Shown piece after piece: positions 3,166 to 39,400 of a DNA stretch of 64,000 bases. The first letter of the stretch is position 1. Each line of letters starts with the position of its first letter. A program made the position numbers and the translations under genes. Source of the stretch: Clostridium sp. (GTDB taxonomy: Bacteria > Bacillota > Clostridia > Clostridiales > Clostridiaceae); the NCBI RefSeq assembly GCF_016650035.1, contig NZ_JAENWM010000004.1:5896-69895 (forward strand), written 5' to 3'. The notes under the pieces are model-generated. The model saw only the letters and a program-made list of their open reading frames with translations, made no database searches and was not told where the DNA came from.

Positions 3166-4565
3166 AACTATCTCCCCCCGTAGATTGTAGATTTATTATT
3201 GTTCTATAAACTTCAGAACTTTTCAGCGGCTCATCATGTGTACCATAATCTACTGTTTTATCATTGTTCAGACACACAATGTGGTCCACTTCCTTAAAAA
3301 TAGTTAAGCGGTGTGAAATTAATATAATCAAGCTATCTTTATAATTATTTTTAAGATTTTTAATGATTTCTTCTTCTGTTTTCATATCAACTGCAGAGAA
3401 TGGATCATCTAAAACCATAATTTTATTTTTCTTTAAAAGGGTTCTTGCCAGAGATATCCTTGCCTGTTGACCCTCACTCAATTTCATTCCGTTGTTACCG
3501 ACAAGTGTATTTTCGCCAAGAGGCATTGCTTCTAAATCAGTATAGAAACAAACATCCTTTAAAACAGAAGTAATGTCCTCATCACTCCCAAGTGTAATAT
3601 TTTTATAAATGCTATCAGAAAGCAATTGAGGCTTATGACCTAGGTAAGAAATCATCTAGCTTCTGTCATATTCAGAGTAGTCCTTAATCTCCTTACCATC
3701 TATCTTAATACTACCTATATAAGGATAAAATCCAAGAAAACATAATCCAAGTGTAGATTTTCCAGAGGCAATAGAACCGGTTACCCCTATTATTTCCTCT
3801 TGCCTTCCCTTAAAACTTATATTTTCAATTATATTCTCTTTGCCGTTAGGGTAGGAAAAGCTAAGATTCTCTACTGAAAGTATTGCACTATCCTTAATGT
3901 CCAGGGAAGTGGTAACTTTGCTTTGGTATTCCGTAAAATAAGGTTTAATACGTTTCCAGGATATCTGTGATTTTTGCATAGAATTAAATAACTTTGCTGC
4001 CTTAGTTGCCATAGCAGCAAACATAATTAGATAGGTAGAAAGATTACCTACAGTCCAATCACCATTAATAACCTTTGTCCCTCCAAGGTAAATTACTATA
4101 ATTATTCCAAGCATTGCAATAACATTATAAATTGGTTGCATTGAATTTTCTAGAATGTTCGCTTTAATTACTTTGTTTTGTAAGTCTTCTAATTCAAAAT
4201 TATAACTTGCTATATTTTGATCTTCCATCCCAGTTGATCTATAGATCATGGCATTTTCAATAGCATCATAGGTAATATCCGTCACATAACTACTTTTTAT
4301 GCGATAGGCAATGGTGTACTTGTAAATAATACTTTTTAATTTTTCAGCAAGCACCATGGCAACAGGAATAAAAGCACAGGAGAGAATAGTTATTTTAACA
4401 TCATAAAACAGCATTGATATAAAATAAGCCTCATGGTAGCGCTTGTACTATTAGCAAAGCGCCTTATGTAGAAACGCTTAAAGTAGCGCATCAATTGAAT
4501 TATTGCTATAAGAGCAACAAAAGTAGAGACCAGTATTACTACCGAGGATAGTTTATAACCGCCAA
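3155..4565 (-). pseudogene. ABC exporter permease/ATPase subunit 1, disrupted
   Basis: ORFs 3656..4414 and 3155..3655 are in one frame, split by TAG at 3656-3658. Walker A GSIASGKS, signature LSEGQ (G>E), Walker B MVLDD. Frameshift near 4400; 5' end missing. Confidence 0.85.
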
Positions 4566-11747: not shown

Positions 11748-12665
11748 TTAGCCGTTTAAATTAATTTCATTATTTTCACAGTCTAACTGTGTTATCTTCA
11801 AAGGATTAACATGGACCATACAATGTTTAACCCTATTGTTCAGACCTTCTATATTATTATGAACACTCTCCGCAATATCATGACCTTCATAAACCGATAT
11901 ATCTCTATTAACACTTATTTCTACATCTACATATAATCTATTAGCACTTACTCTAGTCTTTAGCTCATCTAAAGTTATAACACCATTTGTATTTTCAATT
12001 GATTTTTTTATGTCAATAATGATATTTGTATCAGCGCTATGATCAACTAATTGATTAACAGCTTGTTTATAAATATCTATGGCTACTTTGGTTATTAAAA
12101 CACATATTAGTAATGCTGCAATTGGATCTAATATCGGATAACCCATTCTAGCTCCTGCAATTCCAACTACTGTTCCAATAGATGATAATGCATCGGATCT
12201 ATGATGCCAAGCTTCTGCCATAAGAGCTGAACTTTCAATTTTTTTAGCACCTTTAACAGTATATCTATACATCCACTCTTTAACTATTATAGAAAGTATA
12301 GCTGCATACAACGCAATTTTTTCCGGAATTATGGTTGTTCCATTTACAATGCTCTTAATACCATTGAATCCAATTAGTAGTGCTGTAATTAACAATATTG
12401 TTGCCACTATCTTAGCTACAACAGGCTCCATTTTTTCATGACCATATGGATGATCTTCATCGGCAGGTTTTTTAGCTAAATTCAACCCCAATATTACAAC
12501 TATTGAAGCTAGCACATCAGAAAGTGAGTGTATTCCATCAGCAATCATAGCTCCACTTCTACCTACAATACCTGCAAATAATTTAAATGTGGATAATAAA
12601 ACATTTAAAACTATTGATACCTTAGATATTTTGATACCAATCTTACATCTTTCTTCACTATTCAA
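11748..12665 (-). CDS. Cation diffusion facilitator metal exporter
   Basis: ADGIHSLSD (TM2 HxxxD), HPYGH, EAWHHRSD (TM5 HxxxD), C-terminal HVNP. Confidence 0.93.
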   Translation of the reverse strand: MNSEERCKIGIKISKVSIVLNVLLSTFKLFAGIVGRSGAMIADGIHSLSDVLASIVVILGLNLAKKPADEDHPYGHEKMEPVVAKIVATILLITALLIGFNGIKSIVNGTTIIPEKIALYAAILSIIVKEWMYRYTVKGAKKIESSALMAEAWHHRSDALSSIGTVVGIAGARMGYPILDPIAALLICVLITKVAIDIYKQAVNQLVDHSADTNIIIDIKKSIENTNGVITLDELKTRVSANRLYVDVEISVNRDISVYEGHDIAESVHNNIEGLNNRVKHCMVHVNPLKITQLDCENNEINLNG

Positions 12666-12711: not shown

Positions 12712-12826
12712 AAGAAAACCCGTAGAACATTAAACTGTCCCACAGGTATATAATTCACCCTGTTGCAATTAAGGTCCAGCATCATGCACCTTTTTATAAG
12801 TTCACCAACTGCTTAGTTTGTACTGT
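12712..12826 (-). ncRNA. NiCo (czcD) riboswitch with terminator
   Basis: Minus strand reads AAACUAAGCAG..CAUGAUGCUGGAC..GCAACAG..CUGUGGGACAGUU, matching the recalled NiCo pattern; followed by hairpin CCUGUGGGAC/GUUCUACGGG and a U-run; lies upstream of a CDF gene. Confidence 0.8.
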
Positions 12827-12977: not shown

Positions 12978-14759
12978 TTATATCACTGAGCTAATATATT
13001 TTGCATTGTCCTCATTAGAGTTGTTATTATTAACTACCTGTTTTTCAAAAATATCCCAATTTGGAATAAATGGCATAGAGACATCCTTTAACTCTGAACT
13101 CATTGAAGCAATTATTGTAGGCTTTAGCTTTAGGTCATCTAATTCGTTGTAATGATTTCCAAATATTTCATCAGGATTCCCATTAAGAACTACATTTCCA
13201 TGATTTACAACTATTACTCTTGTAGCATACTTGGCTACAACTTCCATATCATGGGTTACCATAATAAGAGTTCCTCCAAAATTATAAATAATCTCCTGCA
13301 TCAACTTCAACAAACTAGCAAGATTTTTTTCATCCAAACCTGTAGTGGGTTCATCGAGCATTATTATTTTCGGATTTGCAACTAACATTGTTGCTACAGC
13401 CAATCTTTGCCTTTGACCACGGCTTAGGGAGAATGGATGATCATTTTCTTTTGCTTTAAGTTCTACAATATCAAGGGCCTTATCTGCTTCCTTTCTAATT
13501 ACATCCTCTGGTAAATTTTTATCTCTTAACCCAAACTCAATTTCTTCTCTGACAGTATTACAAAACAGCTGATTATCTGGGTTTTGGAATACATATCCAA
13601 TATCTAATATTAATTTTGAAATATCAATATCTTTTGTATTTTTCCCATTTATAAATACATCGCCAGAGGTTGGTTTTAACAGCCCAAGTATGTTTTTCAT
13701 TATAGTGGATTTTCCGGAGCCGTTATGTCCAACTATTCCGAAGAATTCACCCTTATAAATATCAAAATTGACATCAAATAATGTTTGTTTTTTTGCTTCA
13801 GGATAAGTAAAGTTTACATGTTTAATTTCTGCAACCTTTTCAGTGCTTTTAATTGTATAATCCTTATACTTTATATCAGGTATTATCAACGATCTATTAA
13901 GAATAGCTTTCCTTGTAAGTTTCTTTAGAGTTTCCTTTTTTATCGGATAACCATCCTTTGCAGATATAATTCCTTGTTCTATGAGATATTTACCAAGTCT
14001 TATATGATCCGGAATTCTGACACCAATTTTATCAAGAAGTAAAAATTGCTCATAGAATATCTGGTCTGGCTTGCCATTTAGTATTATTTCTCCGTCATGC
14101 ATTACAATGACTCTGTCTGCAAATTCCAATAAATCCGTTAAATCATGTTCAATTACTATAAATGTAACATCGACTTCATTTTTAAGTTCCTGGAGTATAT
14201 CCATTACCTCTTGCTTACTTATAGGATCCAAATCCGTTGTAGGGTCATCTAGAATTATAATTGAAGGAAGCATAGCCAGATTACTGGCTATGGACACCTT
14301 TTGTTTTTGTCCTCCTGAAAGAGAAAATGTTAGATGTCTGCTGATATCCTCTATTCTAAGCTTCTTTAACGCATATTTAACCCTTTTAACAATCTCATCT
14401 CGTTTATAGCCCTGACATTCAACTCCAAATGCAACTTCATCATCCACTCTAATGGAGAATATCTGATCCTCCGGATTTTGAAATACCATGCCTATTTCCG
14501 ATGAAATCTCATGCATTTTTACATCCTGAGTGTTTTTTCCGTTAACTATTACATCGCCTTCTATATTGCCATTCGCAAGATGAGGTATAATTCCATTTAG
14601 GCACTTTGCAAGAGTAGTTTTCCCACTTCCACTCGAACCACACATCAATACAAATTCACCTTTGTTTATTTCAAAATTCAGATTATTTATAGCTTTTTTC
14701 TTCGCTAACGGATAGGTAAAACTAAGATTTTTAATATCTAATACTTTTTTAACTTCCAT
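12978..14759 (-). CDS. ECF transporter ATPase with two fused ABC domains (A-A')
   Basis: Two Walker A motifs (GSSGSGKT, GHNGSGKS), VFQNPEDQ/VFQNPDNQ Q-loops, LSGGQKQ and LSRGQRQ; start set at ATG 14759. Confidence 0.93.
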   Translation of the reverse strand: MEVKKVLDIKNLSFTYPLAKKKAINNLNFEINKGEFVLMCGSSGSGKTTLAKCLNGIIPHLANGNIEGDVIVNGKNTQDVKMHEISSEIGMVFQNPEDQIFSIRVDDEVAFGVECQGYKRDEIVKRVKYALKKLRIEDISRHLTFSLSGGQKQKVSIASNLAMLPSIIILDDPTTDLDPISKQEVMDILQELKNEVDVTFIVIEHDLTDLLEFADRVIVMHDGEIILNGKPDQIFYEQFLLLDKIGVRIPDHIRLGKYLIEQGIISAKDGYPIKKETLKKLTRKAILNRSLIIPDIKYKDYTIKSTEKVAEIKHVNFTYPEAKKQTLFDVNFDIYKGEFFGIVGHNGSGKSTIMKNILGLLKPTSGDVFINGKNTKDIDISKLILDIGYVFQNPDNQLFCNTVREEIEFGLRDKNLPEDVIRKEADKALDIVELKAKENDHPFSLSRGQRQRLAVATMLVANPKIIMLDEPTTGLDEKNLASLLKLMQEIIYNFGGTLIMVTHDMEVVAKYATRVIVVNHGNVVLNGNPDEIFGNHYNELDDLKLKPTIIASMSSELKDVSMPFIPNWDIFEKQVVNNNNSNEDNAKYISSVI

Positions 14760-14796
14760 GTAATATCCCCCCAATTTGAAACGATTAATCATTATC

Positions 14797-15606
14797 TTAT
14801 GGTACTACTAATGTGTTTATACCTAAACCTAGACCGTATCTTATATAGATTGATGCAACAATTAGAATAATTGTTACTACCAAAACTGTATAATCTATTT
14901 TATCTAATTTGAAAACCTGGTAATAATCTTTCCATGCTCTTTTACCAAATCCTTTGCTTTCAATTGCAAGTCCCATAGTTCTGCTCCTTCTGAGGGAGTT
15001 TATCATTAGAGGAAATGCTGCCATCTTAAAGGCTCTGAAGCTCCCTTTGAATCCCTTTTTATCTATTCCTCTGATTGTTTGGGCGGTTGAGATATTAGAC
15101 ATTTCCTCAGCAATCATCGGGAACATTCTTAAAGCTGCAAGCATCATAAAAGCCACTGTAAGAGGCATTTTCATTTTCATCATAGCCTTTGCAAGCTCAG
15201 CGGGGTCAGTAGTACATATTAATATCAAAACAACCAGAGATGGTAATGCAGATCTAAAACCAAGAGTTAAGCCTGAAATAAATCCAATATCAGTGGCTAT
15301 CAGTGGACCTAACTTAAAAAGTATTTTTTGACCAGGAATATTATAGTTATAGAAGGTAGCAAAAACAACTGCTGTGATACTAAAAACTAAAATTGCAATT
15401 AATAAGGGCAGTATAGACTTTATGTCTATACTGGCACTTATCCAAATAGGAGTAAGTATTAAAGCAATTGCAAGCAAGTACCTAATATCAGTAAATAAAA
15501 GTGGGATCATAACAAAAGATATTATAAATATCAATTTAACCCTTGGGTCCATTCTATGAATCCATTTATCTTTCTCATAATTTGATGCAAAATTCATTGT
15601 ATTCAT
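14797..15606 (-). CDS. ECF transporter T component
   Basis: MDPRVKL N-terminus, TTDPAEL, AQTIRG and AIESKG coupling motifs. Confidence 0.92.
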   Translation of the reverse strand: MNTMNFASNYEKDKWIHRMDPRVKLIFIISFVMIPLLFTDIRYLLAIALILTPIWISASIDIKSILPLLIAILVFSITAVVFATFYNYNIPGQKILFKLGPLIATDIGFISGLTLGFRSALPSLVVLILICTTDPAELAKAMMKMKMPLTVAFMMLAALRMFPMIAEEMSNISTAQTIRGIDKKGFKGSFRAFKMAAFPLMINSLRRSRTMGLAIESKGFGKRAWKDYYQVFKLDKIDYTVLVVTIILIVASIYIRYGLGLGINTLVVP

Positions 15607-15693
15607 AAGTTACCTCCAAATATATTTAAACAATTATTTTATATATCAAATAAATACTAAGGTGAGTTTTTAATATTTATTTTTTACTTAGAT

Positions 15694-16272
15694 TTAATTA
15701 ATAAGTGTGCTAATCTTTTTACCTATACCCAACCCCATCATAGTTCCAATTACCATACATACTACTCCTACTGCAAATGCAGCCATAACTAATGGCATTA
15801 CAACAGGAATCATAAATACGTATATTATCATAACAAAATTAAATACAAAGTATAAAACGTTATATATAACTGAATAGACAATCATATCAATAGTGCTGGT
15901 AAATATATCATCGGGATTGCTGAATGCCTTGCATCTAATAGCTAAATAAATTTCGGGTAATAGCGGAAGCAATACTATACATGCAAAGTAATGAGGTACT
16001 TCACCCTGCAGGAAGAAGTTAATGCAGACCCAGCCTATTGTAAAAAACACACCTGCATATTTTTTTCTAGTAACCACTAGACAAGAAACCAAACAGAATG
16101 AACTAAATAACATCATAAACGAGTGGTTAAATGGGAATACAACCCCAAATGTCTTAAATACTAAAAATAGAATTCTAATTAATGCAGCAAAAACAACGAC
16201 TGTTATTAAGTCAACAGCACTAAATGCTTTCCCCATTTTAACTCTGGTTTGATTTTTATTTGTTTGTTGCAT
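15694..16272 (-). CDS. Probable ECF S component (MptD-like)
   Basis: About 190 aa, about 6 hydrophobic helices, DLITVVVFAAL start of TM1; directly upstream of ecfT-ecfAA'; ATG 16272 after RBS GGAGGG. Confidence 0.7.
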   Translation of the reverse strand: MQQTNKNQTRVKMGKAFSAVDLITVVVFAALIRILFLVFKTFGVVFPFNHSFMMLFSSFCLVSCLVVTRKKYAGVFFTIGWVCINFFLQGEVPHYFACIVLLPLLPEIYLAIRCKAFSNPDDIFTSTIDMIVYSVIYNVLYFVFNFVMIIYVFMIPVVMPLVMAAFAVGVVCMVIGTMMGLGIGKKISTLIN

Positions 16273-16328
16273 TTTAAATCCCTCCATTTATTTATTTTAA
16301 CTCACCTTATTATTTACTTTTTCATTTA

Positions 16329-17441
16329 TTAGATATTTATTGTTGATTCAGAGTGACTATCCCCTACTGTTAAGGCATCATAGCAATTCCCATCTATTTC
16401 TTTTGAAGCAATTACATAATCCGATTTCGAGTAATTATCTGCAGCCCTTCTTACAGCGTAAAGGTTTTCATCTGCTGTCTTTGGGTCACATACACAGCCC
16501 GGTCCTATTATTAGGCCTTTTCCATCTACCATCTTAATTGCTTCAGTAACGTGTTTTTCAATCTGCTCTGGATTACTGTCCAACAGTATGCTGTTGTAAT
16601 GAAGTACTCCGTCAACAAAATAAGGAACTTCCTTGATTCCACCTAAAAAGCATTTACCGGTCAGCTGTCTTGCTTGTGCAAAGTCAGGTTTTGCATATCT
16701 GTCATGCCAATTAAGACAAGTACCGGGATAATTTTTTATTGTATTAAACATAATATTATCACCATGTATATGCATTGTATTAAAGTATGTCCTATCCTTA
16801 TAGGAATCAATTACCTTAAGGTCATAATACTCACAAAAGTTTTTATATGAAATATCATCCATTAAATCATAACTCGCAGTCTGTGTGGCTAAGAAAAATC
16901 CGTCCACACCTGCATTTATATTTTCTTTAATGAAGTTTTTAGTTGTCTGAGCTATTACTTCCAAAGCAGAACTTAATATTTTCGGATTTTCTTTCATATC
17001 ATTAAATATTCTATCTCCTGCAAGCTTTCTTGCTGTGCTAAAGGGACTGAATATAGTCTGTATTATAGGGGTATGTTTTTTTCTTAGTTTGGACACCTTT
17101 TGAGCCAACTGAAGCTGTTTCCCCCATGTTCCATACACAGCAGGCAATACTTCTAAATTATTCCAATCATTTATTGATTTAATAGGCCTATCCTCAACTA
17201 TTGGTTCCTTGTACTTGTCACAATATATCTTTATTTTTGCACCCCAATCCTGAATTGAATAGGTTCCGAATGGCATTAACTTTATAAAATCAAAATCGTA
17301 CCTTTCATTAAATGCCACCTGAGCTTCTGCTAAAGCCGTGGTATCTTGATCAACTTCAGAAAAATGCATCCATACACTGGCTGGAATTCTGTCAACTTCC
17401 TCAGAATTTAAAGCAGCTCTTATTCGTTCTTCTCTGTTCAT
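16329..17441 (-). CDS. URO-D/MtaA-fold protein of unknown reaction
   Basis: RIRAAL..DRIP N-terminus, IIQTIFSPFS, DGFF, MHIHG, C-terminal IIGPGC; lacks the UroD RQAGR motif. Confidence 0.8.
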   Translation of the reverse strand: MNREERIRAALNSEEVDRIPASVWMHFSEVDQDTTALAEAQVAFNERYDFDFIKLMPFGTYSIQDWGAKIKIYCDKYKEPIVEDRPIKSINDWNNLEVLPAVYGTWGKQLQLAQKVSKLRKKHTPIIQTIFSPFSTARKLAGDRIFNDMKENPKILSSALEVIAQTTKNFIKENINAGVDGFFLATQTASYDLMDDISYKNFCEYYDLKVIDSYKDRTYFNTMHIHGDNIMFNTIKNYPGTCLNWHDRYAKPDFAQARQLTGKCFLGGIKEVPYFVDGVLHYNSILLDSNPEQIEKHVTEAIKMVDGKGLIIGPGCVCDPKTADENLYAVRRAADNYSKSDYVIASKEIDGNCYDALTVGDSHSESTINI

Positions 17442-17475
17442 GATATATATCCTCCTTCTATACTAATTTTTATTT

Positions 17476-18501
17476 TTATGAAATAATATTTTCTTTAAAA
17501 ATGCTGACTCCAGCTTCTAAAAAGTTAATATTCAATACCAATCCAGCAAGCTTAACTAGTGCTTCTGAATACTTGGTGTCTATTCCAAGAACTTTACCAA
17601 GTTTCACTATTGGTACAATTCCATATGGTATATCCTCTGTTATATACCTATGTGACAAACTTGTTGGAGCCTTGCCTTTTATATAAATTTCATTTTTGTT
17701 AAGGGCATCATATAAATTGTCATATTTAATATCGAAAAAACTGTTAATTGATTCAAGAATTGATGGACAAGTAAATCCAATTCTTTCTGCAATTGATATT
17801 CTCTCTTTGTCTATGCCCTCAATATACGCTATTTCAGATTTGGATACCCCCTCACCATAAAAAGAAAAGTCCTGCCCCTCCTCTATTCTTGCAAGATTAA
17901 ATATCGTTAAAGGAACATGAATTACTGGATTTGTGGTGCTAATTGAAGTTTCATATATGCTGCTTACCTTTTTAAATTGTGGGAATATATTCTTTAAATC
18001 ATTTAATACAATATCCACATCATTAGAATTAATTGTACTTATTGTAATCTGTTTCTTAATTCCAAGAATATTAACCTTTCCAATCTCATATGCCTTTGCC
18101 ATAAAAAGCATAGCACCTGTTTCAGCTACTATTATTTCATTATCCTTTAAAAAATTCTTGTAATATTCCTTAGCTTCAAAAGCACCCCAATTACCATTAA
18201 AAATAATTATTTTTTGTCCCTTTTCCAAATAAGGCTTTATTGCTTTAAAAACATCCAGATGATTGTTTGCAAGAGTAGTAATTAAAATATATTCTGCATC
18301 TGCAAGCGCATCCTTATAATTGCTATAGGCATTTAAGTTAAAATGTCCTTCAATTTTCCCCTCGGAATATAGGCCCTCAGATCTTAATTTCACAGCTTTT
18401 CTCTCATCTCTTGTATATACTGTTATATCACATCCAAGCTCTGAAAGATATGCACCTGTTGCCATACCAATATTACCTGCTCCTATGACCGTAGCCTTCA
18501 T
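17476..18501 (-). CDS. NAD(P)-dependent opine/octopine dehydrogenase family
   Basis: VIGAGNIG Rossmann fold, VAETG, NPVIHVP, HRYITEDIPYGI. Confidence 0.88.
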   Translation of the reverse strand: MKATVIGAGNIGMATGAYLSELGCDITVYTRDERKAVKLRSEGLYSEGKIEGHFNLNAYSNYKDALADAEYILITTLANNHLDVFKAIKPYLEKGQKIIIFNGNWGAFEAKEYYKNFLKDNEIIVAETGAMLFMAKAYEIGKVNILGIKKQITISTINSNDVDIVLNDLKNIFPQFKKVSSIYETSISTTNPVIHVPLTIFNLARIEEGQDFSFYGEGVSKSEIAYIEGIDKERISIAERIGFTCPSILESINSFFDIKYDNLYDALNKNEIYIKGKAPTSLSHRYITEDIPYGIVPIVKLGKVLGIDTKYSEALVKLAGLVLNINFLEAGVSIFKENIIS

Positions 18502-18628
18502 TTTTTACCTCCCCAGCTCCAATATTTTTATTTATTCATATTAAAAAAATAAATTATACAAAACTACTGATTGTAATTAATAAATTACAATCGTTTTCAT
18601 TAAAAATTATTAAGAACATTAACAAATT

Positions 18629-18650
18629 TGTACTGTTGTCTTTACAACTT
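18629..18650. promoter_or_regulatory. Palindromic operator A upstream of the opine dehydrogenase operon
   Basis: TGTACTGTTGTCTTTACAACTT, core GTTGT-CTTT-ACAAC; 21/22 identical to 21998..22019. Confidence 0.7.
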
Positions 18651-18725
18651 ATGCATTTTTTATGACTAATATATCAAAATGGTATAAATATAAATTATTT
18701 TTGTAATTAAGTTAAAATATAATTA

Positions 18726-20027
18726 TCAAATTATATAATAATCCACTACACTTGGTTGCTCCTCAACCATTATTTCTATGATTTGTCCATCTATGTCCCC
18801 CATGCCTTTCATACATAATTCACCTAAGTTCTTTATTGAGGTTTCTGCATCATTTCCAACTATTCCATCAAAATCAGATATGATTGTATTATTTTTTGCC
18901 AGTTCTGCCTGTAAGATAGCTTCGGAAGATGCAGTTGATAGCTTAAATGCACATCCGCCTTTAGCACCATCACAAACCATTCCGGTAATATTGCCAACCA
19001 TATTTTTAATAGCTCCTACAATTTGTATATCATTGCATCCAATAAGCCAGGCCACTGATACACAGGCTCCAATTCCTGCTGCAACACTACACCCACAGAT
19101 TGGTGATAATTTACCTGTATATTCTTTGATATAAATAGTTATTAGATGACTAAATGCCAAAGCTCTTGCAAGTTTTTCATCATCGTATCCCAAATGCCTG
19201 CATATTATGCATGGCGGGATAATTGCTGTAATTCCATGATTTCCGCTTCCCGCACTACTCATTACCGGCCTATTTACACCTGCCATTCTTGCATCTGCTG
19301 CAGCTGCTGTGGCTGAACGTACTTCATTGAGTATTCCCTTATCTAAAATCCCACTATCCATAAGATCCTTAATTCCTGAACCTAAACCTGCGCCTGACTT
19401 ATTTTTAAGACCTATTTCAGCCATCTTCATATTAAGTTTTACACCTTCAAGTAGGAACTCAATATTTTCAAAAGGGACTGTTTCTATAAAATTTCTAAGT
19501 TCTTTAATAGTTAAATTTCCTATTTTACCTAAATCTACATTTTGTATTGTTTCATTTTTTTCAAATACCACTAAGCTGTTTTTTTCAACATATACAATAT
19601 TTGTATGTGAATCTTTAATAATACATTTCGCTTCCCCACGGTCACTGATTACTACAGCTTCTATGAAAAATTTCCCCTTATTTTCTTCAATTTTAATTTT
19701 TACTTTATTATCACCTACAATTCTCTTGGCAGTCGCTATAAAAATATCGTTTACATTTTTTAAAACTTCAAATTCCGATTCCGGTTCTCCACAGACAACA
19801 GCCAATGCAGCCACAAAAGTTATCCCTTTTTCCGTTGTCCCTGGGATTCCAACCCGCATACCATTTTTGTAAATATTCGGGCTTATCTTAACTTCAATAC
19901 TTTTAACTTCACCTCCTATTTGCTTATAAGCTTTAGAAACTGCTATAGCTACTGCCACTGGTTCCGTACAACCAAGTGCTGGTTTTACCTGATTCCTTAA
20001 GACATCTACAATTTTATTGAAATCCAC
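18726..20027 (-). CDS. cdsB: Fe-S L-cysteine desulfidase (CdsB/CyuA, serine dehydratase alpha-like)
   Basis: KPALGCTEP, SSAGSGNHGI, LSPICGC, GMVCDGAKGGCAFK motifs; GTG start. Confidence 0.85.
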   Translation of the reverse strand: MDFNKIVDVLRNQVKPALGCTEPVAVAIAVSKAYKQIGGEVKSIEVKISPNIYKNGMRVGIPGTTEKGITFVAALAVVCGEPESEFEVLKNVNDIFIATAKRIVGDNKVKIKIEENKGKFFIEAVVISDRGEAKCIIKDSHTNIVYVEKNSLVVFEKNETIQNVDLGKIGNLTIKELRNFIETVPFENIEFLLEGVKLNMKMAEIGLKNKSGAGLGSGIKDLMDSGILDKGILNEVRSATAAAADARMAGVNRPVMSSAGSGNHGITAIIPPCIICRHLGYDDEKLARALAFSHLITIYIKEYTGKLSPICGCSVAAGIGACVSVAWLIGCNDIQIVGAIKNMVGNITGMVCDGAKGGCAFKLSTASSEAILQAELAKNNTIISDFDGIVGNDAETSIKNLGELCMKGMGDIDGQIIEIMVEEQPSVVDYYII

Positions 20028-20057
20028 ATTATCACTCCTTTGCTTATATATTCATAT

Positions 20058-20074
20058 AGCAATTATAATGCCAA
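20058..20074 (-). promoter_or_regulatory. Sigma54 -24/-12 promoter of cdsB
   Basis: Minus strand TTGGCATTATAATTGCT (GG-N10-GC), about 30 nt upstream of the start codon. Confidence 0.9.
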
Positions 20075-20110
20075 CTATAAATTAGCGTATTGCTCATTTT
20101 TTGTTTCTAA

Positions 20111-20150
20111 AGTTTTCAATTTTGAAAATATATAATCAAAATTGAAAACT
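20111..20150. promoter_or_regulatory. Candidate enhancer (UAS) for the sigma54 activator
   Basis: AGTTTTCAATTTTGA-N10-TCAAAATTGAAAACT perfect 15 bp inverted repeat; the left arm is itself part of the dyad TTTTCAA-TT-TTGAAAA. Confidence 0.6.
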
Positions 20151-21927
20151 ATGAATCATATTCGTTCATTCTTCTATATAATGTGGTTAAACTTATACCA
20201 AGTTTTTTTGAAGTTTCCTTTTTCCCTTCAATAGTTCTTCCATATCGTTTGAGATACTGTTCTATAATATTTCTCTGAAATATATTTGTGATTTCTTCAA
20301 GATTTCCCTTTATAATTGATTCTTCACAGTAAAATTTATTTGTTTTTGGTTCATCTAACATAAAATAATCAGGCATATCATTAATTTCAATTACTTCATT
20401 TTCGGAAAAAATTACTGCATATTCCAGAACATTTTCAAGTTCACGAATATTTCCCGGCCAATTATATAATAAAAATTTTCTTTCAACTTCTGTTGATATT
20501 ATTTTATGGGTTATCCCCATTTTTTCACATATATTATTGAGAATATACCCACAGCATAACAGAACATCCTCTTCTCTTTCAGCAAGCGTAGGAATACACA
20601 ATGGTATAACGTTCAATCTATAATATAAATCTTGCCTAAACTTTTGATCTTTCACGAGCTCTAAAAGGTCTTTGTGAGTTGCCGTAATTATTCTTACATC
20701 AACTTTTATTGGATAGTTACCACCTACCCTTACTATTTCTCTTTGTTGAAGAACTCTTAATAATTTGGGTTGAAGATGCAATGGAAAATCTCCAATTTCG
20801 TCTAAAAATAATGTACCCTTGTTTGCTAACTCAAATTTCCCTATTTTCCCCTGAGGGTTTGCTCCTGTGAAAGCACCCTTCTCATAGCCAAAAAGCTCGG
20901 ATTCTAAAAGATTTTCAGGTATGGTTGAACAATTTAATGCAATAAATGGCCTGTTTTTTCTAGGACTTGAATTATGAATAGACATGGCAACTAATTCTTT
21001 TCCTGTTCCACTATCCCCTTGAATTAAAATTGTCGCAGAAGTTTGGGCTGAAACCTTAGCTTTCTCAATAACATTCACTAATTTTTTACTTTTGCCTACT
21101 ATATTATTAAAATTTATTTGGGAGTCACCCTTTGCATTCAGTGCTCTATCCAATATTTCTTCTATTTCATCAAAGCTTATCAGAATTGATATTCTTTTAT
21201 CATTCAATACCATATTACTTATTTTATATAATACTTTTAGCTTTTTCCCATTTACTTCCCATTCTCCCATAGTTTCAATGTCATTTGTCCCTTTTGTTAT
21301 AATATTTTTTATTACGTTTTCCACAGATTTATAAAGTACTTTCTCATAACTAAGATTTAAACCTAATATATTTATAGATTTTGCATTAACATGGGTTATT
21401 TCCTTTTCGGAATTTAAAATAATAATTCCCTTGTCTATTGAGTTAATAATTACGTCAACTTCTGCAATTTCAACATTGAGACTATTTAAAATTCTGATGT
21501 TTTCTATTTCCTTTTGAATTTGTTCAACAATCTGAGATAAAATATAGAAGTATTCATTCTGTTTATTAATCATTAGATTCTTTTGTTCAGACTTAAATGC
21601 GATAAATCCTATTACTCCCAGAATGCTGTTTCCTATAATAATGGGATAAGCCATGCTACAAATTTCCTTGCATTCAACGTATGCATAACAATCTCTGCAT
21701 ATGTTACTATCCAGCTTACTAACGTTAATTTCAGATTTACCGGAATTTAATATCTTAGAGAAAATGGAATTCTTAGGGCTATCTTTATTTACCTGCTCAT
21801 AATAGTCTCCTGTACCAACTATCCTTACAAGATTTTGATCTACAACGGTAACGTCAACATTTAATCTTAAACATACATCATCTGCAAACTGTTGAATTTT
21901 ATCCTGTATTAACCTCAAATAAGACAT
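20149..21927 (-). CDS. Sigma54-dependent enhancer-binding protein (CdsR-like)
   Basis: GDSGTGKE Walker A, ESELFGYEKGAFTGA, LFLDEIG, WPGNIREL, C-terminal HTH LGISLTTLYRR. Confidence 0.93.
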   Translation of the reverse strand: MSYLRLIQDKIQQFADDVCLRLNVDVTVVDQNLVRIVGTGDYYEQVNKDSPKNSIFSKILNSGKSEINVSKLDSNICRDCYAYVECKEICSMAYPIIIGNSILGVIGFIAFKSEQKNLMINKQNEYFYILSQIVEQIQKEIENIRILNSLNVEIAEVDVIINSIDKGIIILNSEKEITHVNAKSINILGLNLSYEKVLYKSVENVIKNIITKGTNDIETMGEWEVNGKKLKVLYKISNMVLNDKRISILISFDEIEEILDRALNAKGDSQINFNNIVGKSKKLVNVIEKAKVSAQTSATILIQGDSGTGKELVAMSIHNSSPRKNRPFIALNCSTIPENLLESELFGYEKGAFTGANPQGKIGKFELANKGTLFLDEIGDFPLHLQPKLLRVLQQREIVRVGGNYPIKVDVRIITATHKDLLELVKDQKFRQDLYYRLNVIPLCIPTLAEREEDVLLCCGYILNNICEKMGITHKIISTEVERKFLLYNWPGNIRELENVLEYAVIFSENEVIEINDMPDYFMLDEPKTNKFYCEESIIKGNLEEITNIFQRNIIEQYLKRYGRTIEGKKETSKKLGISLTTLYRRMNEYDS

Positions 21928-21997
21928 ATTACCCCCCCCTAGTGTAATTGTAATTATTTTTAGTTCACTAGTACTATTGTATCTATGAATTATTAAC

Positions 21998-22019
21998 TGT
22001 ATTGTTGTCTTTACAACTT
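21998..22019. promoter_or_regulatory. Palindromic operator B upstream of the sigma54 activator gene
   Basis: TGTATTGTTGTCTTTACAACTT; near-identical to 18629..18650. Confidence 0.7.
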
Positions 22020-22187
22020 CTTAATTCTAGTTTATAATTTTTTTAACCAAAAGTCAACCAATATTTGTTATTTTAGTAAAATATTATAAAATATATTTTG
22101 TTGATTTGTCATAACTAATTACTCCCATTTTTTCTTATATAAATCATATTAGTATAACTCTGTATCATTCAATTCTTAATAAATGTT

Positions 22188-22319
22188 CTATAATTGGGCA
22201 TAAAAAGACCCGGAGAACATTAAACTGTACCACGGGTATATAATTATATAAATTTGCCTATTTTCATAAGATGGTGATATCCCACCATTGCTTTCCGCTT
22301 GTAATAATGCTATGTTCAA
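22188..22319 (-). CDS. Possible 43 aa ORF or chimeric gene stump
   Basis: AAGGAGG-N5-TTG; MNIALLQAESNGGISPSYENRQIYIIIYPWYSLMFSGSFYAQL*; reads through the NiCo-like repeat. Confidence 0.25.
   Translation of the reverse strand: MNIALLQAESNGGISPSYENRQIYIIIYPWYSLMFSGSFYAQL
22208..22245 (-). repeat. Degenerate copy of the NiCo riboswitch 3' end and terminator
   Basis: 35/38 ungapped identity to 12718..12755, same orientation. Confidence 0.85.
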
Positions 22320-22483
22320 ATTAGCCTCCTTAATTTTTGATGCTTTTGCCTATCTCTATTTATTTTACAATACAGGTAAAACATCCTTGTTTCACTATGG
22401 TTTCTATACATATGAAAATAAATTATATTAAGTTGTAAATTTCTGTTATGTTACTACACATACCCCTTCAGCAGTACTGTGTA

Positions 22484-23215
22484 TTACGTTAACTCAAAAT
22501 TAATAAATGGTTTATATTTATCTGCTTTTGCTATGGTTACGGTATAGGCTATGATTTCATTTTTTTCACCTATTATGTTCGATTCCCAGGATATAAGTGG
22601 TCTATCTTTTGGAACATTTAACATATTCATTTCAAATTTGCTAGGAAACTTGGCATCAATGTGTATGTGAAGGTACTTCGGATTCAAATTTAAAATATTT
22701 TTAAGATATTCATGTAGATAATAATTCGACAAATTCTCTTCATTATGTATACTACCATTAATTATTGATGCTGGGATATAAGAGTAGTCAATAGCTATAG
22801 TCTCCTTTAAATCAACCATTTCCCTTGTGATTTTACATACCTCTTCCCCCTCTTTAAGATTAAGTTTTTTAATTATACTTTCATTTGCATTCATAAATTC
22901 AATACTTACTACTTTATGGTTTCTAAATTCAGAAATTTCAGATGAAATTTTAGATGATTTAGAAAGTGTATGTTTCATACCTAGAAAATCCTCATTTGTA
23001 AATTTCACAAATGTACCCTTTCCTCTGATCCTTTCTACTATGCCAAGTATATTTAATTCCGAAACAGCCTTATTTGAGGTAACTCTGCTTACATTAAACA
23101 TAACAGAAAGCTCATTTTCTGATGGTAATTTATCTCCTATGACAAAATCACCCTGGCTTATCTTATCAATAATATAGTTTTGAATTATTACATATTTCGG
23201 TGTAAAATCATTCAC
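22484..23215 (-). CDS. GntR-family regulator, HutC/UTRA subfamily
   Basis: GDKLPSENEL..FNVSRVT..RIRGKGTFV wHTH plus a UTRA-length C-terminal domain; 243 aa. Confidence 0.92.
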   Translation of the reverse strand: MNDFTPKYVIIQNYIIDKISQGDFVIGDKLPSENELSVMFNVSRVTSNKAVSELNILGIVERIRGKGTFVKFTNEDFLGMKHTLSKSSKISSEISEFRNHKVVSIEFMNANESIIKKLNLKEGEEVCKITREMVDLKETIAIDYSYIPASIINGSIHNEENLSNYYLHEYLKNILNLNPKYLHIHIDAKFPSKFEMNMLNVPKDRPLISWESNIIGEKNEIIAYTVTIAKADKYKPFINFELT

Positions 23216-23416
23216 TTTATATCTCTCCTTAATTACTTATTATATTATTATTATCATAAGCTATTACTAAAATAAAGACAATAATACATATACAAATATA
23301 TTTATTCTCATGAGAATTGATTTCCCACTAATTTAGATAATATAAGATTTTATGAGGATCAGTATATATAGCCTACTAGCCACTTTTTATTTTCGTTCTT
23401 AACTTACCAAGTGCCA

Positions 23417-24322
23417 TCACATATTTAGCAAAACAACTGCTACAACTATAAAGCCTATAGATATAAATTGACGTGTAGTCAGTTTTTCTTTGAAGAATAG
23501 CAAGTTAATAATATTAACTACTAGGATTACACCTACTGAAAATAAGGGGAATACAACGAATGCAGGAATTGATGTAAGAGCGCGCAGTAAGAACTGGGAT
23601 ATAAATTGAGAAGGGATTCCTGCTATAAGACCAAAGATAATATCCGTACGCTTTATCCTACGATCCTTAACCAACATGAATATTCCTGTAACTATAAATG
23701 AGAACAGAAATGTGAAAAAGATAAACAAACTTTGAAATTCTTCTGTTCCATATATCTGGTATATCTTAGAAGTAAAGTCACAAAACCCTCCAAGAAAGAA
23801 TGTACCAAATAGTGCGAATTTTAAGGTTACAATATTATTTTCCTCTTTTTTAAAGTAAATAACCAATATTGCTGACATTGCAACTAATACACCCACAATC
23901 TGCAATAACTTAGGGATTTCATGAAAGAAGATAACAGATAAAATAGCCGGCACCATGACGCCAATCTTATTGAATGTAGCCGTCATTGCACTGCCATTAT
24001 GTGCAGTACTTATTTGTAATAAATAAAATGCACCAAAATAGATAAAACCATTAAATAAAGCAAGAAGCAATGTGAATATAGATGGCGTAATCCGAATTAA
24101 ATTACTGCCTTGAGCTGTTCTTTGTCCTAATTCAGATATGAATAAAGTAACCCATTGAGGGTCAGATATCATTTGTGTAAAAGCAAGCATCAGGCTGAAG
24201 ATAGTTGCTCCTAGAAAACTGAAAAAACAGACTGCTAAACGGTTAGAATTGCTTTTTTCAGTAAACTTAAATAAGACATTTAAACTTGAAGAGAAAAGTA
24301 TTGCAAAAATAAGAAATATCAT
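23417..24322 (-). CDS. DMT/EamA-family transporter
   Basis: 301 aa, about 10 hydrophobic segments in two similar halves, C-terminal FFKEKLT..GF. Confidence 0.8.
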   Translation of the reverse strand: MIFLIFAILFSSSLNVLFKFTEKSNSNRLAVCFFSFLGATIFSLMLAFTQMISDPQWVTLFISELGQRTAQGSNLIRITPSIFTLLLALFNGFIYFGAFYLLQISTAHNGSAMTATFNKIGVMVPAILSVIFFHEIPKLLQIVGVLVAMSAILVIYFKKEENNIVTLKFALFGTFFLGGFCDFTSKIYQIYGTEEFQSLFIFFTFLFSFIVTGIFMLVKDRRIKRTDIIFGLIAGIPSQFISQFLLRALTSIPAFVVFPLFSVGVILVVNIINLLFFKEKLTTRQFISIGFIVVAVVLLNM

Positions 24323-24671
24323 ATTATTTTCTCCTTTTCATAATTATTGTTCAATTGCTACTAATGTAACATCTATTTCATTTATATCTAATATCAATTG
24401 CCTTTGCATTTTTACCTTCCATTTCATCCTATTAGTATGTAATTTATTTTTTAATTTAATTACATAATATTATATCATATTTATATTTATATCTCTAATT
24501 CAATTAACATATGCTTAAATCACTAATAGGGGACTCGCCAACATTTCTCTGAATCACACCAATAGGGTAAAAAACAACCTAAAGCTAACTAATACCTATA
24601 AATAGGCTAATCCAAAATATCTATTGAAAAAGAAGTTTATCATCAATCATTCTGCCTAGTTTGTGCATACC

Positions 24672-39092: not shown

Positions 39093-39400
39093 TTGTCCTT
39101 CCTCCTTTAAAATATATTATATAACTTATATAATCAAAATTTTGTCATTTTTTACCACAAAAATATATTTTTATTCTTTTATAAACCGCCACTAATTTCC
39201 ATATTATTTTAAGTACATCATTAAAAAAAACGACCTATATTCTCTAAATTTCACTAACTAGCACTATAGAATGCCTATAGTTAAATTGTTATTGTCATAA
39301 ATGTAATATTGTCCATTGTAAAACTAAAGTTGTATTAAACGCAAATAAAGTGCCATATAGGCACTTTATTGTTTATTGATCATATTAAAATAAATATGGC

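What the first reader, a model, noticed from the sequence alone, without database searches (positions are those of the whole stretch)
18629..22019. One 22 bp operator in front of both the opine operon and the sigma54 activator: a two-tier cascade
Seen: TGTA(C/T)TGTTGTCTTTACAACTT occurs at 18629-18650 and 21998-22019 (21/22 identical). Its core dyad is GTTGT-N4-ACAAC, and on the coding strand it starts with a -35-like TTGTAA. A partial match (TAAAGACAATAATACA, near 23273-23288) lies upstream of the GntR gene itself. Established: HutC-subfamily GntR repressors bind GT-x-TA-x-AC-type dyads. Inference: GntR senses the imported compound and derepresses both uptake/cleavage and the CdsR-like activator, which then senses released cysteine and fires the sigma54 cdsB promoter. 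This feed-forward logic independently ties the cassette together.
Basis: partly seen in the sequence, partly recalled or inferred. Interest (0 to 1): 0.66.

Follow-up and report, generated by a model that had tools for sequence, protein, structure and literature searches.

The report
Shared GntR operator gating sigma54 module
A 22-base DNA site that occurs only twice in this Clostridium genome is most likely the binding site of the neighbouring GntR repressor; one copy sits on the promoter of a sigma-54 activator gene and the other before a transporter/enzyme operon, an ordinary kind of switch wired in an uncommon way.

Summary
TGTAYTGTTGTCTTTACAACTT lies at 18629-18650 and 21998-22019 (21/22 identical). 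Its 14-nt core occurs nowhere else in the 3.97 Mb genome.

The GntR assignment is well supported by comparison. GntR orthologues (41-68% identity) lie in 12 other loci beside odh/uroD/transporter operons. None has a sigma-54 activator. Eleven carry the same GTTGT-N4-ACAAC dyad plus an extra half-site, usually just after a TTGACA-N17-TAnAAT promoter. A weight matrix built only from those loci ranks the two window sites first and second genome-wide, 10 bits above the next hit.

The activator-cdsB pair is a separate module with its own inverted-repeat UAS and its own TTGGCAT-N5-TTGCT promoter. The five closest odh relatives lack it. In the window it sits behind what is, by homology, the ancestral odh promoter-operator. 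The odh copy is an isolated operator with no recognisable promoter upstream and no terminator after cdsB.

The site before gntR is only the right part of an operator. Both ligand identities remain inference; nothing was tested biochemically. This is a new member of a known kind, of moderate interest.

The parts
21998..22019 (-). Operator O2. It reads AAGTTGTAAAGACAACAATACA on the coding strand: the dyad GTTGT-AAAG-ACAAC plus an extra half-site, AATACA. It begins 9 nt after the -10 of the activator promoter.
   Evidence: It scores 31.1 bits, the top hit in the genome, on a matrix built from other loci only. It is identical to the L014 site.
18629..18650 (-). Operator O1. It reads AAGTTGTAAAGACAACAGTACA and lies 128 nt upstream of the odh start codon and 75 nt after the cdsB stop codon.
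   Evidence: It scores 30.4 bits, second in the genome. Its upstream flank is not homologous to the odh promoter of relatives. There is no terminator between cdsB and O1.
23273..23288 (+). Partial site O3, TAAAGACAATAATACA. It is the right arm plus tail only, inverted relative to gntR, and overlaps the predicted gntR -35 (TTGTCT, 23281-23276).
   Evidence: Eighteen nt (with the next two bases, 23273-23290) are identical to the L053 operator.
22029..22057 (-). Sigma-A promoter TTGACT-N17-TAAACT driving the activator gene. It is the orthologue of the odh promoter of the closest relatives.
   Evidence: It matches L053 at 30/37 ungapped positions (p=0.002) and 38/54 (p<0.0002).
22484..23215 (-). 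GntR-family regulator of the HutC subfamily: an N-terminal winged HTH plus a C-terminal UTRA domain.
   Evidence: Pfam PF00392 and PF07702. The nearest solved structures are NagR/YvoA and DasR.
20149..21927 (-). Sigma-54 enhancer-binding protein (CdsR-like): GAFTGA motif, AAA+ domain, HTH_8.
   Evidence: Pfam PF00158, PF25601 and PF02954. The best NCBIfam hit is PrdR, below its cut-off. Orthologues of 53-57% identity always sit before cdsB.
20111..20150 (-). Candidate UAS of the activator. It is a perfect 15-bp inverted repeat, AGTTTTCAATTTTGA-N10-TCAAAATTGAAAACT, overlapping the activator's stop codon.
   Evidence: z = -5.5. TTCTCAATATTGA-type repeats lie at the same place in L035 and L036. 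The architecture resembles the published C. difficile CdsR2 UAS.
20058..20074 (-). Sigma-54 -24/-12 promoter TTGGCATTATAATTGCT in front of cdsB.
   Evidence: It matches the consensus TTGGCATNNNNNTTGCT given in PMC6615313.
18726..20027 (-). SDH_alpha-family (CdsB/CyuA-like) putative cysteine desulfidase.
   Evidence: Pfam PF03313. It is 60-62% identical to the cdsB genes that follow the orthologous activators.
12978..18501 (-). Target operon: odh (17476-18501), uroD-like (16329-17441), ECF S component (15694-16287), ECF T component (14797-15606) and fused ECF A/A' ATPase (12978-14792).
   Evidence: The same genes lie next to GntR orthologues in L012, L013, L014, L044, L045, L050 and L052.

Best explanation
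The 22-mer is the operator of the adjacent HutC-type GntR repressor. It consists of a GTTGT-N4-ACAAC dyad for a dimer plus a third, weaker half-site 8 nt further on.

In the ancestral layout, kept by the closest relatives, one sigma-A promoter (TTGACT-N17-TAAACT) followed at once by this operator drives odh, uroD where present, and the ECF importer. gntR lies alongside.

In this lineage a self-contained cdsR-like activator / cdsB module, with its own UAS and -24/-12 promoter, came to lie between that promoter-operator and odh. A second operator copy sits between cdsB and odh.

The predicted consequences are as follows.
- Without the GntR effector, GntR sits on O2 and blocks synthesis of the activator, so cdsB cannot fire even if the activator's own signal is present.
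- GntR also sits on O1. There it blocks either a weak local promoter or read-through from upstream into odh-ECF.
- With the effector, presumably the imported compound or a product of it, both sites clear. The activator is made, and cdsB then needs the activator's own signal as well. This is an AND gate.

Shown by sequence and comparison: the sites, their uniqueness, their co-occurrence with GntR orthologues, their position relative to promoters, the separate UAS and sigma-54 promoter, the presence of rpoN, and the derived state of the insertion. Inferred: binding itself, repression rather than activation, both ligands, and the role of O1.
For: Uniqueness
- The 22-mer matches only these two sites in the window and in the genome.
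- All other near-matches examined lie inside ORFs.

Co-occurrence with GntR orthologues
- Orthologues of 41-68% identity lie in L012, L013, L014, L038, L044, L045, L046, L047, L049, L050, L051, L052 and L053, beside odh, uroD, SDH_alpha, ECF, Tct or TRAP genes. No sigma-54 activator lies next to any of them.
- The dyad lies in the relevant intergenic region in 11 of these 12 distinct loci (L012 and L044 are near-duplicates of one locus type).
- I estimate about 0.05 chance hits in roughly 4.6 kb of intergenic DNA, from the genome rate of 46 hits with up to 2 mismatches per 3.97 Mb.
- L014 carries the identical 22-mer.
- L051 carries the canonical GTTGTATATACAAC.

Independent matrix
- A matrix trained without the window sites scores O2 at 31.1 bits and O1 at 30.4 bits. 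The next genome hit scores 20.4 bits.

Fit to the HutC rules
- GT-N4-AC spacing, NyGTMTAKACNy and extra half-sites 7-12 nt from the centre are described in PMC4494728.

Position
- TTGACA/T-N17-TAnAAT followed 7-21 nt later by the operator in L012, L013, L014, L045, L046, L050, L053 and at the window activator gene.

Separate activator module
- Orthologous activator-cdsB pairs in G047 and G055 have no GntR, no odh and no 22-mer.
- The window module has its own UAS and sigma-54 promoter.
- rpoN is present.

Derived insertion
- The odh relatives at 81, 75, 72, 71 and 66% identity all lack the module.
- The promoter in front of the activator is homologous to the odh promoter of L053.
Against: - No binding, transcript or expression data exist. 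No RNA runs hold this sequence.
- O1 has no recognisable promoter upstream of it. How odh is transcribed is therefore unclear, and so is what O1 blocks.
- Two 22-nt direct repeats flanking an inserted segment could be a by-product of the rearrangement. With a single genome carrying the insertion, purifying selection on O1 cannot be shown.
- L049 shows only a left half-site, and the L046 site is shifted.
- The centre of the window dyad (GTAAAGAC) deviates by one base from GTMTAKAC.
Confidence: 0.75

Rival explanations
1. The two copies are mainly a scar of the rearrangement that put the activator-cdsB module into the odh leader, through duplication or recombination at the operator. Only O2, which kept the promoter, matters for regulation. 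O1 is a passenger.
For: - The copies are direct repeats that flank the inserted 3.3 kb exactly, and similarity stops at 22-29 nt.
- O1 has no homologous promoter upstream of it.
- A third, truncated copy lies before gntR, and a 44-nt repeat of the NiCo riboswitch 3' end brackets the 9.5 kb block. Both show that the locus has been rearranged.
Against: - O1 is a full-score site (30.4 bits). Any GntR that binds O2 should bind it as well.
- O1 differs from O2 only in the weak tail half-site.
- It sits with no terminator between cdsB and odh, where a bound repressor would have an effect.
- Origin as a scar does not exclude present function.
Confidence: 0.12
2. The motif is bound by a different protein: the sigma-54 activator itself as a second UAS, or an unlinked global regulator.
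For: Activators of this class often autoregulate, and O2 lies before the activator gene. The palindrome is AT-rich, like many clostridial operators.
Against: - The motif occurs in 11 loci that have no activator nearby.
- It is absent from the orthologous activator loci.
- No -24/-12 element follows either copy. The only such element in the cassette is at 20059-20073.
- The activator has a different candidate UAS, conserved with its orthologues.
- Only two sites exist in the genome, which argues against a global regulator.
Confidence: 0.04
3. GntR binds both sites but acts differently at each. It represses at O2, and at O1 it acts as an activator or anti-terminator-like element for a downstream promoter (TATAAT at 18553-18558), given that O1 lies about 70-95 nt upstream of that -10.
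For: - O1 lies upstream of the only perfect TATAAT in the odh leader.
- A unique palindrome, TTGTAATT-N4-AATTACAA (18571-18590), lies between them.
- Some GntR-family proteins act as activators; this rests on general knowledge and was not tested here.
Against: - In every relative the same site lies downstream of the promoter, the classic repressor position.
- The TATAAT has a poor -35.
- The HutC-subfamily members with solved structures or mapped sites that came up here (NagR, DasR) are repressors.
Confidence: 0.07

Closest known systems
HutC-subfamily GntR repressors and their operators (NagR/YvoA dre sites, DasR, TreR, HutC)
   Same: - A winged-HTH plus UTRA protein. The nearest solved relatives are NagR/YvoA and DasR.
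- A palindromic operator with GT-N4-AC spacing and an AT-rich centre, often with an extra weaker half-site 7-12 nt away (PMC4494728).
- The regulator is encoded next to a catabolic or transport operon.
- The site overlaps the transcription start region.
   Different: - Sequence identity to characterised members is low (E about 1e-10 to NagR).
- The effector and pathway are unknown.
- The window dyad centre is AAAG (GTAAAGAC) rather than MTAK.
- The regulon includes a sigma-54 activator gene. I know of no HutC-type regulator for which this has been described; that statement rests on memory and on the negative literature searches.
CdsR-CdsB sigma-54 module of Clostridioides difficile and Clostridium (Gu et al. 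2018, PMC5767170; Nie et al. 2019, PMC6615313)
   Same: - A 592-aa activator with GAFTGA lies directly upstream of cdsB.
- There is a TTGGCAT-N5-TTGCT promoter.
- An inverted-repeat UAS has long arms and a spacer of about 10 nt, like the CdsR2 site GTCTCAAAATGA-N9-TCATTTTGAGAC.
   Different: - Here the activator gene lies behind a GntR operator.
- It is a second copy beside a resident pair (C97; 39% and 44% identity) whose UAS differs.
- Its closest orthologues are in another family of the same order.
- Its signal has not been tested.
Repressor-gated sigma-54 activators, such as CcpA acting on the acoR or levR systems of Bacillus subtilis (from memory, not checked here)
   Same: A sigma-A-level regulator sets the amount of a sigma-54 activator, so the target promoter needs two signals.
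   Different: There the upper tier is a global catabolite regulator. Here it is a local, pathway-specific repressor whose operator is shared with a transporter/enzyme operon.

Membership tests
GntR family, HutC subfamily regulator | N-terminal GntR winged-HTH domain (PF00392) | tested here: met
   PF00392 matches residues 11-70, E = 5.6e-16.
GntR family, HutC subfamily regulator | C-terminal UTRA (chorismate-lyase-fold) effector domain (PF07702) | tested here: met
   PF07702 matches residues 101-235, E = 3.4e-17. The best NCBIfam hits are HutC, TreR and PhnF, all below their cut-offs.
HutC-type operator | Palindrome with GT and AC 4 nt apart, consensus NyGTMTAKACNy (PMC4494728) | tested here: met
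   - The window site is TTGT-AAAG-ACAA. The spacing is met and the 8-mer GTAAAGAC matches 7/8.
- Orthologous loci show GTATATAC (L051), GTATAGAC (L052) and GTAAATAC (L038, L047).
HutC-type operator | The site co-occurs with the regulator gene across genomes and lies at its target promoters | tested here: met
   - Present in 11 of 12 orthologue loci, just after TTGACA-N17-TAnAAT in 7 of them.
- A matrix built from other loci ranks the window sites 1 and 2 in the genome.
HutC-type operator | The protein binds the site and an effector releases it | not testable with these tools
   This needs EMSA, footprinting or DAP-seq, plus a ligand screen.
Sigma-54 dependent activation (activator, UAS, -24/-12 promoter) | AAA+ sigma-54 interaction domain with GAFTGA, plus a DNA-binding HTH | tested here: met
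   PF00158 (E = 4.6e-71) and PF02954. GAFTGA is visible in the translation.
Sigma-54 dependent activation (activator, UAS, -24/-12 promoter) | GG-N10-GC promoter in front of the target gene, and rpoN in the genome | tested here: met
   TTGGCATTATAATTGCT at 20058-20074. A Sigma54_DBD hit at C149, 180 bits.
Sigma-54 dependent activation (activator, UAS, -24/-12 promoter) | Upstream activator sequence bound by the activator | tested here: inconclusive
   A perfect 15-bp inverted repeat lies at 20111-20150. It has related repeats in orthologous loci and resembles the CdsR2 UAS. Binding was not tested.
CdsR/CdsB cysteine-responsive system | The activator responds to cysteine and CdsB is a cysteine desulfidase | not testable with these tools
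   Only the gene order, the Pfam SDH_alpha hit and the promoter/UAS type are shared. The protein is a paralogue of the resident pair.

The most novel reading that the evidence does not exclude
An uncharacterised HutC-type regulon handles an opine-like or cysteine-linked compound imported by an ECF, Tct or TRAP system and processed by odh, uroD-like and CdsB-like enzymes. In this lineage it captured a dedicated cdsR/cdsB paralogue into the leader of its operon. That built a two-signal AND gate: the GntR effector licenses synthesis of the activator, and the activator's own signal then fires cdsB. The second operator acts as a roadblock that keeps sigma-54-driven transcription out of the uptake genes until GntR is released.
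Probability: 0.3. Interest if true: 0.55.

Novelty: new member of a known kind. Interest (0 to 1): 0.42.

Why it matters
- **A defined operator.** The work assigns a concrete operator, with a consensus, to a GntR orthologous group that has no described function. The group is spread over Clostridia-type metagenome contigs and MAGs (several labelled Clostridiaceae or Clostridia).
- **A handle on an unknown pathway.** The odh / uroD-like / CdsB-like / ECF-Tct-TRAP gene set it controls is probably one uncharacterised pathway linked to cysteine. SDH_alpha genes lie in two other orthologue loci, and cysK-cysE in a third.
- **A traceable rewiring.** Relatives that keep the ancestral state show how a ready-made sigma-54 module was placed under a local repressor by landing behind an existing promoter-operator.
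- **Easy to test.** The predictions are simple, but the regulatory principle itself is not new.

Tried and rejected
- **Activator UAS.** The 22-mer is not the activator's UAS. The motif is present in loci without an activator and absent from orthologous activator loci, and no -24/-12 element follows it.
- **Global regulator motif.** Rejected: two sites per genome, and all other near-matches examined lie inside ORFs.
- **Recent segmental duplication.** Rejected as the explanation for the similarity: the flanks are unrelated beyond 22-29 nt.
- **Assembly artefact.** Rejected: four runs give identical continuous contigs. The loose ends seen were chance low-complexity matches.
- **Transcript evidence.** None exists; only DNA runs hold the sequence.
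- **Relatives in the same genus.** The 29 same-genus genomes searched have no close odh (29% identity at most) and no close activator orthologue (about 41% at most), so they gave no comparison.
- **Other collections.** Scans of genome contigs and metagenome contigs with the GntR alignment gave only one useful locus, L038.
- **Horizontal transfer.** Base composition shows no anomaly across the insertion.
- **Literature.** No paper holds the motif or describes an odh-ECF-GntR cassette.
Full report
**1. Observation**

They differ only by C/T at position 5. No shuffle of the window gave a match with up to 3 mismatches.

The assembly is 3.97 Mb at 31% GC. Only these two places match the 22-mer with up to 2 mismatches, and the 14-nt core GTTGTCTTTACAAC is exact only twice. 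The few other near-matches that I examined lie inside ORFs.

The partial match at 23273-23288 is also real. It is 15/16 identical to the right part of the 21998 copy and is the only other hit with up to 2 mismatches in the window, where 0.16 hits are expected in total. It has no left arm and scores -1 bit as a full site.

Contigs from four independent permafrost metagenome runs are identical to the window and run unbroken across gntR, the activator, cdsB and the start of odh.

**2. Gene content**

All genes lie on the minus strand.

| Gene | Coordinates |
|---|---|
| EamA transporter | 23417-24322 |
| GntR/UTRA regulator | 22484-23215 |
| Sigma-54 activator with GAFTGA | 20149-21927 |
| SDH_alpha-family CdsB-like enzyme | 18726-20027 |
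| Octopine-dehydrogenase-family enzyme (odh) | 17476-18501 |
| URO-D-fold protein (uroD-like) | 16329-17441 |
| ECF S component | 15694-16287 |
| ECF T component | 14797-15606 |
| Fused ECF A/A' ATPase | 12978-14792 |
| NiCo riboswitch | 12733-12826 |
| CDF transporter | 11748-12665 |

**3. Whose site is it?**

The decisive evidence is comparative. Homologues of odh at 81, 75, 72, 71 and 66% identity (L053, L014, L012, L044, L013) all have a GntR/UTRA gene directly beside odh. None has a sigma-54 activator or cdsB in between.

In each of them the coding strand in front of odh carries AAGTTGTAAAGACAA(C/T), 7-10 nt after a TTGAC(A/T)-N17-TAnAnT promoter. L014 has the identical 22-mer. L012 and L044 have a second copy next to gntR.

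More distant GntR orthologues (41-62% identity) sit beside other gene sets.

| Locus | Neighbouring genes |
|---|---|
| L045, L050 | odh-ECF-CDF |
| L038, L046 | tctCBA-uroD |
| L047 | uroD-SDH_alpha-TRAP |
| L051 | SDH_alpha-tctCBA |
| L049 | ECF only |
| L052 | cysK-cysE-odh-ECF |

Variants of the same dyad lie in the relevant intergenic region of all but L049.

| Locus | Dyad variant |
|---|---|
| L038 | GATGTAAATACAAC |
| L045 | GTTGTCATAACAAC |
| L050 | GTTGTAATGGCAAC |
| L052 | GTTGTATAGACAAC |
| L051 | GTTGTATATACAAC |
| L047 | TATGTAAATACAAC |
| L046 | a shifted copy |

I built a weight matrix from 13 of these sites, leaving out the window. It scores the two window sites at 31.1 and 30.4 bits, first and second in the whole genome. 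The next hit scores 20.4 bits and lies inside a coding region.

The motif obeys the published HutC rules: GT and AC 4 nt apart, and NyGTMTAKACNy (PMC4494728). The asymmetric tail of the 22-mer (AATACA) lines up with an extra half-site 8 nt downstream of the right arm (ATGACAAC, ATTACAAC, TATACAAT in L045, L046, L050, L052 and L051). That paper describes such extra half-sites for GntR-family sites.

**4. The activator-cdsB pair is a separate module**

Between the activator gene and cdsB lies TTGGCATtataaTTGCT, a textbook -24/-12 element. Upstream of it, overlapping the activator's stop codon, is a perfect 15-bp inverted repeat, AGTTTTCAATTTTGA-N10-TCAAAATTGAAAACT.

The closest orthologues of the activator (53-57% identity) are in another family of the same order. 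There they are again followed by cdsB (60-62% identity), with TTCTCAATATTGA-type repeats and a TTGGCA-N5-TTGC promoter. They lie behind tRNA genes, with no GntR, no odh and no 22-mer.

The repeat has the same architecture as the published C. difficile CdsR2 UAS (supplement of PMC6615313). The cdsR-cdsB arrangement is that of Gu et al. (PMC5767170). rpoN is present in the genome.

The genome also has a resident activator-cdsB pair on another contig (39% and 44% identity) with a different UAS. The cassette copy is therefore an extra paralogue, and its signal need not be free cysteine.

**5. How the two modules were joined**

The 37 nt upstream of O2 (TTGACTTTTGGTTAAAAAAATTATAAACTAGAATTAA) align without gaps to the odh promoter of L053 at 30/37 positions (p = 0.002). 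Over 54 nt the match is 38/54 (p < 0.0002). The flank upstream of O1 shows no such homology (p = 0.15-0.73).

The activator gene therefore now sits behind the ancestral odh promoter-operator. O1 is an isolated second operator copy, 75 nt after the cdsB stop codon. No terminator lies in between.

The truncated copy in front of gntR shares 18 identical nt with the L053 operator. A 44-nt copy of the NiCo riboswitch 3' end at 22202-22245 brackets the whole 9.5 kb block. Both are further traces of rearrangement. Base composition gives no sign of recent foreign origin.

**6. Mechanism proposed**

GntR, as a dimer on the dyad possibly helped by the third half-site, occupies O2. That site spans roughly +3 to +24 of the TTGACT/TAAACT promoter, so the activator gene stays off.

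GntR also occupies O1. There it can block a weak local promoter or block transcripts reading through from the sigma-54 promoter or the activator promoter into odh-uroD-ECF.

An effector bound by the UTRA domain releases both sites. cdsB then still needs the activator's own signal and sigma-54.

The sites, their positions and their phylogenetic behaviour are shown. Binding, the direction of regulation, both ligands and the role of O1 are inferred.

One observation supports a functional tie between this GntR regulon and cysteine metabolism. SDH_alpha-family genes lie in the orthologue loci L047 and L051, and cysK-cysE in L052. The L047 enzyme is only 33% identical to the window CdsB, which points to separate recruitment rather than shared descent.

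**7. Rivals**

- **Pure rearrangement scar, with O1 functionless.** This cannot be excluded with one genome. However, O1 is a full-score site at a place where a bound protein would matter.
- **Binding by the activator or by a global regulator.** This is contradicted by the distribution of the motif.
- **A dual role of GntR at O1.** This is possible but goes against the conserved repressor position in the relatives.

**8. Verdict**

The cascade is plausible at the level of sequence, but its signals are unknown. The components are ordinary. The wiring, and the fact that its origin can be traced, are of moderate interest.

Noticed in passing
window 12733-12826 (-) and 22202-22245: A NiCo riboswitch (RF02683, 39 bits) precedes the CDF gene. 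Its 3' 44 nt, including the terminator stem, recur at 89% identity downstream of gntR. The two copies bracket the 9.49 kb block that runs from the activator to the ECF genes. The upstream copy folds poorly (z = -1).
   Followed up: partly
window 18571-18590 (-): A perfect palindrome, TTGTAATT-TATT-AATTACAA, lies between O1 and a TATAAT at 18553-18558 in the odh leader. It is unique in the genome and absent from the L053 leader. Its function is unknown; it could be a site for another regulator or a leader hairpin.
   Followed up: partly
G000 contig C97:82060-85255: A second, resident sigma-54 activator / cdsB pair (39% and 44% identity to the cassette copies). It has its own TTGGCATGGATATTGCT promoter and an ATCATAATGAGAATTAATTCTCATTATGAT inverted repeat.
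   Followed up: partly
L046 about 3895-3915: A perfect sigma-54-type element, TTGGCACATAAATTGCA, lies about 140 nt upstream of tctC in a GntR-orthologue locus that has no activator within the fetched 10 kb. It lies downstream of the GntR-type promoter-operator.
   Followed up: no
L047 4231-5514; L051 6650-7904; L052 754-2235: Other GntR-orthologue loci carry SDH_alpha (CdsB-like) genes or a cysK-cysE pair next to the uroD, odh and transporter genes. This hints that the pathway as a whole is linked to cysteine.
   Followed up: partly
window 39341-39355 (-): Another TGGCAC-N5-TTGC sigma-54-like element, TGGCACTTTATTTGC. Its context was not examined.
   Followed up: no
window 22190-22321 (-): A 43-codon ORF preceded by AAGGAGG lies in the 556-nt gap between gntR and the activator gene. 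It runs into the NiCo 3' fragment. It may be spurious.
   Followed up: no
window 14139-14184 and 24341-24386: A 46-nt direct repeat at 80% identity. One copy lies inside the ECF ATPase gene and the other just upstream of the EamA gene. It is unexplained.
   Followed up: no
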